Source of the DNA: Escherichia phage vB_EcoS_G29-2
Strand: one strand, 5' to 3'
Sequence record: NC_049822.1
Length of the DNA: 51,739 nt
How positions within the stretch are numbered: the stretch's first letter is position 1; the number at the start of each line of letters is the position of its first letter. The notes under the pieces were generated by a model. It searched no databases. It saw only the letters and a program-made list of their open reading frames with translations, and was not told where the DNA came from. Below are positions 34,755 to 36,950 of this stretch, piece after piece. Both the position numbers and the translations under genes were made by a program.

Positions 34755-36950
34755 TTATTTTTTCATCAGTTCAGCAACTGCCGCTTTAAGATCTTCAATA
34801 TCTTTTTTCTGTCTCTCAATCTCATTTCCCATGTAGACCATAGCGCAAGCCATATCAGCCATGATAACGTTATTGTCAAGCGCCAATGTGTCATCTGCTT
34901 TGTCAACCACAATTTGACGATCTACATATTCTTCACCTTCATCATTAACGCCTATAACATCTGCAAAAATGTCCCCGCCAGGTACTAGTTTTACATATTC
35001 AGGATCTATTTTTAGCAGATCCTGAGCTATCATCCCGAATCGCTGGATGTTGCTTCCATTGTATTTAAACATTGTAGGCAGCCACTGCATAACGCGATCA
35101 TAGCTTTCTTTTCCATCTGTATAAATTATATCGTGCTTTAAATCCCTGTCAGAGTTAGCGGCCTTTTGAAAAATGAAATTTCCACTTGATGACCATGTAG
35201 TTATATCGTTTGATGCTGGCTGGAACTGGAAGTTACAGAAAAAATTACCATCACCACGAAGCCTTAACGAGCAAAAAGGCCATGCATTATTTCCTTGTGG
35301 AATAAGACCCCAAGTTGCGCGAATAGGATAGCCACCAGTGGACTGGGTTCCCCATGAAAGACCTGGCGCCCAACCACCGTCATTGTTAGCAACAATCTCA
35401 CCCCAAACAAGAGCATTACCCCAATAATTTGGATCGTCCCACCCCATTTGTTGAGTTCTTCCGGTGTATTGAGCAGAATGCGTTCTGCCGTCAGGATAAA
35501 ACTTGTGCATATAGCTTTGAACACCATGCTTATACAGTTCAATCCCAAAAGACTCAATTTGGGCAGCACCACCTCTGATCAAACCTGCGATAGCGTAATC
35601 GTTATACCAGTTGTAACGACTTACACCAGTCCATGTGTTCATCGGCGGGTTCATAATTGAAAATAGTTGTGACGGATTGTGTTCATTTCCTTCAGCATAA
35701 AAACCAGCCCCAGGAGCTAAGGAAATACTTTTCGCCCCTGAAAAAGTACCATTTTCATTAAACTGATAATACTGTGATGCACCATTATGAAATACGCCTA
35801 TTGTATGCTTTCCTACGCCTACTTGAGTCTCAAAATAAGACTGAGAAGATCCAATATCTTCGCCTTGTGTACTCTTTAGTTTTGAATGGTATATACCTGC
35901 GTTTGCAGTATTTGCATTTTCCGTTTCATTTTCAACATTAAGGCTTAGAAATTTTGGTGCATGTTTTTCGCCAAGCCCTATATTGTTTCTGATGCCATTT
36001 GCGTCAATAGCTCCAGTACCACCAGAAGAAATAGCTAAAGGCACAGTTTCAAATGAGCTAGATCCTGAAGTGTCTCTCTGAAAAACAAGAAGACCATCAT
36101 TTCTGATAACAAGCCTATATTCTCTATTTCTAGAGTACAAGATAGTATGCTCGTAATCCTGAAAAAATGAATCAATGCTAAGCGTCTGGCGAGCAGATTC
36201 GATGTCAGAAAGATCTTTAAGGTTCTGATCCTTATGCAATAGATTTTCAGGATTTACCTGTTGCGCCCACTGGCGAGCTTCATCACGCGCAGTTTCAGCG
36301 CCAGCCTTTGCATTATTTGCCTCAACGGCATGATTTCCAGCCGTATCACGCGCCAATTCAGCCTGATCGCGAGCACCGAAAGTCTCTTGTTTAATGGCTT
36401 CCGTTTCGATTATAGCTGAATCTTTAATCTGTTGCGTTTGCGCCTTGATTGCGTCAGTGTCTGATTTAATCTGGTTTGTTTCAGCAACAGCAGAATCCTT
36501 TATCTGTTGAGTGTTGTTTTTCAGTTGTTCAGTAGCAGCACGATCATTGGCCGTTTTCTCTGCATCACCTTTAACTTGATTAGCCAGATCTTGCAACTGT
36601 TTCAGGTCAAAGTTTTTGAAAAATTCAATAGCTTCCTCGATCTGAGTTTCTTTGCTTTGGTAGTAGCGCAGAGTTTCCGCAACATCTTGCGCCAGGCCGT
36701 CAACCGTGATTGAGTCATGCAGCAAAATAATGTAATTGCTTCGCCCAATTTCAGCTCCTCCATTTGTGATGGCGCGGATTTGTGTATCGCTGATAACCTC
36801 ACTGATCACAGCCGCTTGAAATGGCGCATCAATGAAAAAGATTGTAGCACCAGGGCGAATGAGTGTTAGTTGCTCTCGCCATTTTGTGTCGTATCCAGTG
36901 ATATAACCTTGCGCGTCCATTGACGCTTGTCCGGTTCTGTAAATTGCCAT
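34755..36950 (-). CDS. tail fibre protein with C-terminal intramolecular chaperone (peptidase S74-like) domain
   Basis: 731 aa; coiled-coil shaft; C-terminal NSDRDLKHDI...coiled-coil end typical of self-cleaving chaperone domains. Confidence 0.75.
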   Translation of the reverse strand: MAIYRTGQASMDAQGYITGYDTKWREQLTLIRPGATIFFIDAPFQAAVISEVISDTQIRAITNGGAEIGRSNYIILLHDSITVDGLAQDVAETLRYYQSKETQIEEAIEFFKNFDLKQLQDLANQVKGDAEKTANDRAATEQLKNNTQQIKDSAVAETNQIKSDTDAIKAQTQQIKDSAIIETEAIKQETFGARDQAELARDTAGNHAVEANNAKAGAETARDEARQWAQQVNPENLLHKDQNLKDLSDIESARQTLSIDSFFQDYEHTILYSRNREYRLVIRNDGLLVFQRDTSGSSSFETVPLAISSGGTGAIDANGIRNNIGLGEKHAPKFLSLNVENETENANTANAGIYHSKLKSTQGEDIGSSQSYFETQVGVGKHTIGVFHNGASQYYQFNENGTFSGAKSISLAPGAGFYAEGNEHNPSQLFSIMNPPMNTWTGVSRYNWYNDYAIAGLIRGGAAQIESFGIELYKHGVQSYMHKFYPDGRTHSAQYTGRTQQMGWDDPNYWGNALVWGEIVANNDGGWAPGLSWGTQSTGGYPIRATWGLIPQGNNAWPFCSLRLRGDGNFFCNFQFQPASNDITTWSSSGNFIFQKAANSDRDLKHDIIYTDGKESYDRVMQWLPTMFKYNGSNIQRFGMIAQDLLKIDPEYVKLVPGGDIFADVIGVNDEGEEYVDRQIVVDKADDTLALDNNVIMADMACAMVYMGNEIERQKKDIEDLKAAVAELMKK

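What the first reader, a model, noticed from the sequence alone, without database searches (positions are those of the whole stretch)
34755..36950. Tail fibre with self-cleaving C-terminal intramolecular chaperone domain
The C-terminal about 120 aa contain the SDRDLK-type segment and a terminal coiled-coil, characteristic of peptidase S74 chaperone domains that trimerise the fibre and then auto-cleave. The true start appears to be the RBS-supported ATG at 36950, not the upstream in-frame ATG at 37034.
Basis: partly seen in the sequence, partly recalled or inferred. Interest (0 to 1): 0.4.

Follow-up and report, generated by a model that had tools for sequence, protein, structure and literature searches.

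The report
Phage tail fibre with self-cleaving chaperone
This gene encodes the side tail fibre of a T1-like coliphage, whose last 132 amino acids are a well-known built-in folding helper that most likely cuts itself off once the fibre has assembled; it is ordinary and already annotated this way in public databases.

Summary
Window 34755-36950 (- strand) is a 731-aa ORF. Its C-terminal 132 aa (S600-K731) match Pfam Peptidase_S74 above the curated cut-off, and they start with SDRDLK (Ser600/Lys605). That is the same profile register as Ser1264/Lys1269 of phage T5 pb1, where S1264A blocks cleavage. The ATG at 36950 is the right start: GGGAGA lies 6 nt upstream, solved homologues begin at the same Met, and the RefSeq CDS is identical. 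The upstream in-frame codon at 37034 is TTG, not ATG, and it sits inside the primase gene's terminator hairpin.

The window is the published genome of Escherichia phage vB_EcoS_G29-2 (Drexlerviridae, Hanrivervirus-like). This exact protein is YP_009901604.1, "tail fiber protein", which UniRef names "Peptidase S74 domain-containing protein".

The architecture is an N-terminal virion anchor, a helical shaft, a GGTGA linker, a 269-aa receptor-binding tip and the chaperone. Tip plus chaperone are about 89% identical in DNA to L-shaped fibre genes of T5-like phages, which indicates horizontal exchange.

Cleavage itself is inferred and was not shown here. It predicts an 81.2 kDa precursor giving 66.1 + 15.0 kDa. 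Fold searches with monomer models were uninformative.

Verdict: interpretation supported, already known, low interest.

The parts
34755..36950 (-). Lateral tail fibre gene, 731 aa plus TAA stop. Identical to YP_009901604.1 of Escherichia phage vB_EcoS_G29-2.
   Evidence: ORF list and sequence; exact database look-up; PHROG tail-fibre families, best E 6.4e-189
36957..36962 (-). Shine-Dalgarno GGGAGA, 6 nt upstream of ATG 36950
   Evidence: Read from the sequence
37016..37037 (-). Intrinsic-terminator-like hairpin plus T-run that ends the upstream primase gene. It contains the in-frame TTG 37034, which argues against that start.
   Evidence: Terminator scan; sequence
36591..36950 (-). N-terminal anchor domain (aa 1-120), shared with fibres and depolymerases of T1-like siphophages
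   Evidence: phmmer against PDB: 7VYV/7VZ3/7LZJ depolymerase residues 1-182, E 1.8e-50. BASEL paper: only the far N-terminus is conserved among Drexlerviridae fibres.
36216..36590 (-). Ala/Gln/Glu-rich shaft (aa 121-245), presumably helical (this segment was not modelled here), with a 25-aa internal repeat (aa 142-162 and 167-187)
   Evidence: Repeat and composition script; 45% identity to the shaft module of the VEc33 fibre
35961..36215 (-). Linker module (aa 246-330) with the SSGGTGA...NIGLG motif. The 5' boundary of the block shared with T5-like phages lies here, at about window 36024.
   Evidence: megablast match begins at gene nt 927; BLASTP against VEc33; weak hit to tail fibre 7Z47
35154..35960 (-). 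Receptor-binding tip (aa 331-599), all-beta in the model, with no enzymatic domain detected
   Evidence: AF2 model, first 160 residues with pLDDT about 75-94; tblastn finds this tip in 179 T1-like and T5-like phage records; no Pfam hit
34758..35153 (-). S74 intramolecular chaperone domain (aa 600-731, 15.0 kDa). The predicted scissile bond is Asn599|Ser600.
   Evidence: Pfam PF13884; profile hit to 8HQZ chain d across the whole domain; masses
35151..35153 (-). Ser600 codon, the predicted nucleophile, equivalent to T5 pb1 Ser1264
   Evidence: Both sit at PF13884 profile position 1; hhalign aligns ANSDRDLKHD with NTSDARLKND; Ser in 95 and Cys in 26 of 121 aligned sequences (the query plus 120 homologues)
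35136..35138 (-). Lys605 codon, the predicted general base, equivalent to T5 pb1 Lys1269
   Evidence: Invariant in 46 of 46 aligned sequences (the query plus 45 homologues) and in alignment A1; T5 mechanism from PMC4690869
34899..34973 (-). Long beta-hairpin (aa 660-684), the likely 'tentacle' that wraps the fibre tip
   Evidence: AF2 model of the domain, strands 660-668 and 674-684, pLDDT 82-93; description of the T5 chaperone
34761..34874 (-). C-terminal long helix (aa 693-730), the likely trimeric coiled-coil core of the chaperone
   Evidence: AF2 helix in both models; heptad test alone not significant
34716..34741 (-). Intrinsic-terminator-like hairpin (11 pairs, 7 GC) plus T-run, just after the fibre stop codon
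   Evidence: Terminator scan
34843..36024 (-). Block about 89% identical in DNA to L-shaped tail fibre genes of T5-like phages (VEc33, phiLLS, EC148, T5_ev212)
   Evidence: megablast, gene nt 927-2108; VEc33 annotation; protein alignment, 81% overall and near-identical from aa 310 to about 703

Best explanation
This is the lateral (side) tail fibre of a T1-like siphophage, Escherichia phage vB_EcoS_G29-2.

Shown:
- The domain order, the S74 domain, the Ser/Lys dyad, the start codon and the mosaic relationship to T5-like fibres.

Inferred:
- Three copies of the 81.2 kDa precursor associate through the C-terminal 132-aa S74 intramolecular chaperone. Its long terminal helices form a trimeric bundle, and its beta-hairpins embrace the nascent receptor-binding tip. 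This nucleates folding of the intertwined trimer.
- Once the tip is correctly folded, Ser600, activated by Lys605, attacks the Asn599-Ser600 peptide bond. The 15.0 kDa chaperone is released.
- That exposes the tip of a 66.1 kDa mature fibre, which is attached to the tail through its N-terminal anchor domain.
- The mature tip then binds a surface glycan (O-antigen or LPS) reversibly to speed adsorption. Irreversible binding is left to the central tail-tip receptor-binding protein.
For: 1. Pfam Peptidase_S74 scores 33.4 bits full length and 41.6 bits for the domain alone, against a cut-off of 22. T5 pb1 scores 37.8 bits on the same model with Ser1264 at profile position 1, exactly as Ser600 does here.
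2. In T5 pb1, S1264A blocks auto-proteolysis, cleavage is at Thr1263|Ser1264, and Lys1269 activates the serine. That chaperone consists of a central coiled-coil, a mixed alpha/beta body and long beta-hairpin tentacles (PMC4690869).
3. The AF2 model of aa 591-731 (pLDDT 82) has these same elements: an alpha/beta body at 608-656, a hairpin at 660-684 and a helix at 693-730.
4. A domain profile hits DT57C LtfA (8HQZ) over positions 7-133 of 141, E 7.8e-11, and S16 gp37 (6F45), E 0.01.
5. D601, K605 and 19 further positions are invariant across 24 diverse homologues.
6. The N-terminal 179 aa match the anchor of siphophage depolymerases 7VYV and 7LZJ, E 1.8e-50.
7. The gene lies between the recombination genes and the primase/helicase genes, the conserved lateral-fibre locus of Drexlerviridae.
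8. Tip plus chaperone are about 89% identical in DNA to the L-shaped fibre gene that follows the collar protein gene in T5-like phage VEc33.
9. The published view of Drexlerviridae fibres is coiled-coil shafts with T5-like tips and C-terminal chaperone domains (PMC11990801).
10. The public record names this exact protein a tail fibre and a Peptidase S74 domain protein.
Against: - No experiment on this phage or a close relative was found that shows cleavage.
- Single-sequence and profile searches did not reach T5 pb1 or the K1F endosialidase directly.
- The arginine conserved at position 572 in most homologues is a cysteine here. If that arginine is the folding sensor, it must be supplied from elsewhere, and R563/R565 co-vary with its loss.
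- The receptor is unknown.
Confidence: 0.88

Rival explanations
1. The S74 domain is present and helps trimerisation, but it is not cleaved in this lineage and stays on the virion fibre.
For: Position 572 is Arg in about 82 of 121 aligned sequences but Cys here. In T5 an upstream Arg from a neighbouring chain is needed to form the oxyanion hole. No proteomic evidence for cleavage was found in Hanrivervirus-like phages.
Against: Ser600 and Lys605 are intact and lie in the canonical register. All 25 sequences that lack R572 have gained R563, and 24 of them also R or K at 565, on the adjacent strand, which looks like a relocation rather than a loss. In T5, only the processed fibre competes for the receptor, so a retained cap would be expected to block binding.
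Confidence: 0.07
2. The protein is an enzymatic tailspike (a glycan depolymerase) rather than a purely binding fibre.
For: The N-terminal anchor is shared with Klebsiella siphophage capsule depolymerases 7VYV and 7LZJ. S74 domains were first described on the K1F endosialidase.
Against: There is no Pfam or PDB sequence hit to any enzymatic or beta-helix domain between aa 180 and 599. The tip is only 269 aa. Its homologues are the tips of L-shaped or lateral fibres of T5-like and T1-like phages. The depolymerase similarity stops at aa 179.
Confidence: 0.04
3. Translation starts further upstream (TTG 37034 or ATG 36971), giving a longer N-terminus.
For: Both codons are in frame with no intervening stop.
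Against: TTG 37034 is inside the terminator stem 37016-37037. I see no Shine-Dalgarno-like sequence in front of either codon, whereas ATG 36950 has GGGAGA at 6 nt. PDB chains 7VYV and 7LZJ, the PHROG profiles and both RefSeq annotations all start at the Met of 36950.
Confidence: 0.01

Closest known systems
[quoted passage not shown] 2015, PMC4690869)
   Same: A C-terminal S74 domain of about 132 aa (133 in T5). S-D-x-x-L-K with Ser and Lys five residues apart, in the same Pfam register. The same set of elements: alpha/beta body, long hairpin, terminal helix. The same role as a side fibre for reversible adsorption on a siphophage.
   Different: The fibre is much shorter (731 against 1396 aa). 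The tip shows no detectable sequence similarity to the pb1 'bullet' domain, and fold similarity was inconclusive. The N-terminal anchor is of the T1-like type.
L-shaped tail fibres of other T5-like phages (VEc33 gp087, phiLLS, EC148, T5_ev212) and DT57C LtfA (PDB 8HQZ)
   Same: Tip plus chaperone (aa 310 to about 703) are about 89% identical in DNA and about 90% in protein to VEc33-type fibres. The chaperone profile aligns over its whole length with DT57C LtfA.
   Different: The N-terminal attachment and shaft differ, as does the last 28 aa of the terminal helix. DT57C has SGIEYK in place of SDRDLK.
Lateral tail fibres and depolymerases of Drexlerviridae (slyngel gp40, atuna, pSf-1, BASEL Bas04 and Bas07; Klebsiella phage depolymerases 7VYV and 7LZJ)
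   Same: The same genomic locus, the same N-terminal anchor, and 94% protein identity to slyngel gp40. The published description of coiled-coil shaft, T5-like tip and chaperone domain fits.
   Different: The distal parts are swapped freely between relatives. The Klebsiella phages carry a depolymerase instead of this tip.
K1F endosialidase C-terminal chaperone domain (PDB 3GW6; Schulz et al. 2010), the founding member of MEROPS/Pfam S74
   Same: The Pfam family is the same. The Ser-Lys auto-cleavage mechanism was proposed there and transferred to T5.
   Different: The cargo there is an enzymatic tailspike with a triple beta-helix stalk. No direct sequence hit was obtained here.

Membership tests
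Peptidase S74 / intramolecular chaperone auto-processing domain (Pfam PF13884) | Match to the family profile above the curated threshold | tested here: met
   33.4 bits full length and 41.6 bits for the domain alone, against a gathering score of 22. T5 pb1 gives 37.8 bits on the same model.
Peptidase S74 / intramolecular chaperone auto-processing domain (Pfam PF13884) | Ser nucleophile and Lys base five residues apart at the N-terminal edge of the domain | tested here: met
   Ser600 and Lys605 in SDRDLK. Ser600 is at profile position 1, as is T5 Ser1264. hhalign pairs the two motifs. Lys is invariant, and the nucleophile is Ser or Cys in all 121 aligned sequences.
Peptidase S74 / intramolecular chaperone auto-processing domain (Pfam PF13884) | C-terminal position, about 130 aa, directly after a trimeric fibre or spike tip | tested here: met
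   aa 600-731 are the last 132 residues and follow a 269-aa all-beta tip.
Peptidase S74 / intramolecular chaperone auto-processing domain (Pfam PF13884) | Fold: alpha/beta body, long beta-hairpin tentacle, terminal helix that forms a trimeric coiled coil | tested here: inconclusive
Peptidase S74 / intramolecular chaperone auto-processing domain (Pfam PF13884) | Upstream arginine from a neighbouring chain that completes the active site only in the folded trimer (T5 Arg1250) | tested here: inconclusive
   The Arg at 572 that most homologues conserve is Cys here. R563 and R565 appear exactly in the sequences that lack it. Without a trimer model their position relative to Ser600 is unknown.
Peptidase S74 / intramolecular chaperone auto-processing domain (Pfam PF13884) | Auto-proteolytic release of the domain, abolished by Ser-to-Ala | not testable with these tools
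   Needs protein expression or virion proteomics. No published data were found for this phage group.
Drexlerviridae lateral tail fibre | Conserved N-terminal anchor domain | tested here: met
   aa 1-179 against 7VYV/7LZJ, E 1.8e-50. PHROG fibre families align from residue 1. The BASEL description agrees.
Drexlerviridae lateral tail fibre | Locus between the recombination genes and the primase/helicase genes, in a T1-like genome | tested here: met
   Primase and regulator lie upstream and helicase beyond them. The locus is syntenic with slyngel. The first 25 kb of the window is 96% identical to Hanrivervirus-like phages. The genome is identified as vB_EcoS_G29-2.
T5 pb1-type 'bullet' receptor-binding domain | Sequence or fold similarity to pb1 residues 970-1263 | tested here: inconclusive
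   There is no sequence hit. Foldseek places 4UW7 at rank 7 with probability 0.57, E 0.2, TM 0.17-0.22.

The most novel reading that the evidence does not exclude
In this fibre-tip lineage the arginine that most homologues keep at position 572 has moved to the neighbouring strand (R563/R565, with Cys at 560 and 572). A sister group of Enterobacter prophage fibres has replaced the Ser nucleophile by Cys. If both variants still cleave, the S74 active site would be more plastic than the canonical Ser-Lys-Arg picture: the folding sensor could relocate and the nucleophile could be a thiol. This would be a modest mechanistic extension, not a new system.
Probability: 0.2. Interest if true: 0.3.

Novelty: already known. 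Interest (0 to 1): 0.1.

Why it matters
It matters little beyond correct annotation. The fibre tip decides which surface glycans the phage can use for first contact. The chaperone boundary (Asn599|Ser600) tells anyone who wants to express or swap this tip where the mature protein ends, and that the chaperone must be kept in the construct for folding. The near-identical tip in T5-like phages is a clear example of receptor-binding modules moving between phage families, but that principle is already well documented.

Tried and rejected
2. Foldseek against the PDB on the same model gave nothing with E <= 0.001. T5 pb1 4UW7 appeared only at E 0.2.
4. phmmer of the full protein against PDB sequences found only the N-terminal anchor.
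5. hhalign of the family profile against T5 pb1 970-1396 aligned only the 13-residue SD..LK motif, probability 0.3%.
6. The wider profile A2 against the PDB gave no tip homologue.
7. The heptad test of the terminal helix was not significant.
8. Literature searches for experimental cleavage data in T1-like or Hanrivervirus fibres found none.
9. I considered and rejected a longer ORF from TTG 37034 or ATG 36971, and a depolymerase function (see the rival explanations).
10. An internal promoter-like site at the Ser600 codon is most simply a by-product of the codons for S-D-R and D-I-I.

Full report
**The sequence.** On the - strand an ORF runs from 37034 to a TAA at 34755-34757. It lies inside a GC-rich hairpin followed by nine T's (37016-37037), which the terminator scan reports directly after the stop codon of the upstream primase gene. 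There are two in-frame ATGs, at 36971 and 36950. Only the latter has a ribosome-binding site: GGGAGA at 36957-36962, six bases upstream. From 36950 the product is 731 aa. Four results support this start:
- The solved Klebsiella siphophage depolymerases 7VYV and 7LZJ begin MALYREGKA..., aligned residue 1 to residue 1 with MAIYRTGQA....
- The PHROG fibre profiles align from position 1.
- The RefSeq CDS of the closest listed phage, slyngel, is the same 2196 nt.
- The RefSeq protein for this very sequence is 731 aa.

A second terminator-like hairpin (34716-34741) follows the stop codon.

**The S74 domain.** Pfam Peptidase_S74 (PF13884) matches aa 600-654 on profile positions 1-58. The score is 33.4 bits against a gathering score of 22, E 5.5e-8. 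The isolated C-terminus scores 41.6 bits. The domain starts with S600-D-R-D-L-K605. I scanned T5 pb1 residues 970-1396 with the same model. It scores 37.8 bits, with local residue 295, which is Ser1264, at profile position 1. Ser600 and Lys605 are therefore in register with T5 Ser1264 and Lys1269. In T5, S1264A abolishes auto-proteolysis, the scissile bond is Thr1263|Ser1264, and Lys1269 is proposed to activate the serine (PMC4690869). hhalign pairs ANSDRDLKHDIIY with NTSDARLKNDVRA, although the score is statistically weak because only the motif aligns.

A profile of 24 diverse homologous C-termini (alignment A1) has 21 invariant positions, including D601 and K605. It hits the last 120 residues of the DT57C L-shaped fibre protein in PDB 8HQZ over nearly its whole length (E 7.8e-11). 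It also hits the chaperone of phage S16 gp37 in 6F45, more weakly (E 0.01). All 120 listed homologues of the tip plus chaperone carry PF13884 in their precomputed annotation.

**Predicted structure.** An AF2 model of aa 591-731 has mean pLDDT 82. It contains a small alpha/beta body (608-656), a long beta-hairpin (660-668 and 674-684) and one long helix (693-730). These are the elements described for the T5 chaperone: a central coiled-coil, a mixed alpha/beta domain and long hairpin 'tentacles'. Fold searches did not confirm this:
- Foldseek gave nothing significant; T5 4UW7 appeared with probability 0.57 and E 0.2.

Monomer models of an intertwined trimer are a poor query, so I score the fold criterion as inconclusive. 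The heptad pattern of the terminal helix (9 of 11 a/d positions hydrophobic) is reached by 10% of shuffles. 'Coiled-coil' therefore rests on homology.

**The rest of the protein.**
- aa 1-179 match the anchor region of depolymerases 7VYV and 7LZJ (E 1.8e-50).
- aa 121-245 are an Ala/Gln/Glu-rich shaft with a 25-aa repeat.
- aa 246-330 carry the SSGGTGA...NIGLG linker motif.
- aa 331-599 are an all-beta tip with no Pfam or PDB sequence match.

Gene nucleotides 927-2108 (window 34843-36024) are about 89% identical to genes of T5-like phages such as VEc33, phiLLS and EC148. In VEc33 that gene is the 940-aa fibre that follows the collar protein for L-shaped fibre attachment. The proteins are near-identical from aa 310 to about 703 and then diverge in the last part of the helix. 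tblastn finds this tip family in 179 phage records, both T1-like (about 50 kb) and T5-like (about 105-125 kb). These include the BASEL phage FritzSarasin, where it is annotated as lateral tail fibre. Some Drexlerviridae homologues (P0075-P0087) share only the chaperone and have an unrelated tip, so the chaperone travels with different cargoes.

**Identity of the window.** The first 25 kb is 95-96% identical to Hanrivervirus-like T1 relatives. The exact fibre protein is YP_009901604.1 / QBQ81512.1, 'tail fiber protein [Escherichia phage vB_EcoS_G29-2]'. UniRef names it 'Peptidase S74 domain-containing protein', and it sits on a contig of 51739 bases, the length of this window. The phage was described by Korf et al. 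2019 as a pSf-1-like siphovirus from manure (PMC6563267). The gene lies in the position described for the Drexlerviridae lateral-fibre locus, between recombination genes and primase/helicase genes. The BASEL follow-up paper describes Drexlerviridae fibres as coiled-coil shafts with T5-like tips and C-terminal chaperone domains (PMC11990801). A Cronobacter Drexlerviridae fibre has been annotated the same way (PMC12090712).

**Mechanism.** The domain architecture, the dyad and the homology are shown. The following steps are inferred by transfer from T5 pb1 and the K1F endosialidase:
- The chaperone trimerises, and its hairpins template the tip.
- Ser600, activated by Lys605, cleaves Asn599|Ser600 once the trimer is correct.
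- The 15.0 kDa domain leaves, and a 66.1 kDa mature fibre remains from the 81.2 kDa precursor.

Glycan binding for reversible adsorption is inferred from the role of T5-like fibres. [quoted passage not shown]

**One open detail.** In T5, an arginine of a neighbouring chain (Arg1250) completes the active site. In this fibre-tip family most sequences have Arg at position 572. The query and its close relatives have Cys or Thr there. All 25 such sequences have Arg at 563, and 24 of them also have Arg or Lys at 565, whereas no R572 sequence has R563. This looks like a relocated arginine. The sequences are related, however, so few independent events are involved, and I could not place these residues in a trimer.

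**Verdict.** The feature is already known and already annotated, so interest is low.

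Noticed in passing
Homologues P0088-P0111, P0113 and P0116 (Enterobacter and other enterobacterial prophage fibres): Twenty-six of the 120 homologues have Cys instead of the Ser nucleophile (motif QPNCDITLKHD). The Lys and the rest of the domain are intact, and some of these clusters have 25-28 member sequences. This would be a natural thiol variant of the S74 dyad. I found no paper that describes it.
   Followed up: partly
window 35235-35264 (-), aa 563-572: There is an arginine swap in the hairpin before the cleavage site. R572 is present in most homologues. The query clade has C or T at 572, R563 in all 25 such sequences and R or K at 565 in 24 of them, and usually C560 as well. 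This could be a relocated folding-sensor arginine. The possibility that Cys560 and Cys572 pair was not assessed.
   Followed up: partly
window 35125-35152 (-): The best sigma-70-like match in the region (CTGACA, 16 nt spacer, TATAAT; 11 of 12) sits exactly on the codons for S-D-R...D-I-I of the cleavage motif. It is probably a by-product of the coding sequence. The number of promoter-like sites in the region equals the shuffle expectation.
   Followed up: no
window 33872-34576 (-): The gene just downstream of the fibre encodes a 234-aa protein with a Gly-rich N-terminus and two Cys clusters (ERCCCE and a C-terminal TGCCGC). It matches PHROG 9288, function unknown, and has no Pfam hit. It lies in the variable lateral-fibre locus, so it could be a fibre accessory protein.
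   Followed up: partly
GenBank MG065643, MG065649, MG065657, MG065680, MG065681 (hits H3-H7): Records named 'Campylobacter phage' with host C. jejuni are about 92% identical to this coliphage fibre gene, and 22 such records match the first 25 kb of the window. A T1-like enterobacterial phage labelled as a Campylobacter phage suggests a mis-assigned host or contaminating phages.
   Followed up: no
NC_021331 / KC710998 (Shigella phage pSf-1), record positions 1-1208: The pSf-1 genome record is linearised inside the fibre gene. Its annotated 'tail fiber protein' (P0008) is therefore only a 228-aa C-terminal fragment.
   Followed up: no
L002 (Escherichia phage VEc33) 2457-5279: The T5-like fibre contains two consecutive copies of the 'SIDS..QD...GGTGA' linker module. 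The query's shaft and linker (aa 143-326) match the first copy at 45% identity, and its tip matches after the second copy. This suggests that the linker is the recombination joint.
   Followed up: no
window 36732-36950 (-), aa 1-73: The family profile's first 73 positions hit a PDB chain labelled 'Distal tail protein gp20' (23gd_B, E 2.9e-5). This hints that the fibre anchor shares a small domain with a distal tail protein.
   Followed up: no
window 36951-37015 (-): Between the primase terminator and the fibre start lies TGCTATTAT, which reads as an extended -10-like element (TGn + TATTAT) without a good -35. It was not reported by the scan's criteria. It may be the fibre gene's own promoter, but this is untested.
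   Followed up: no
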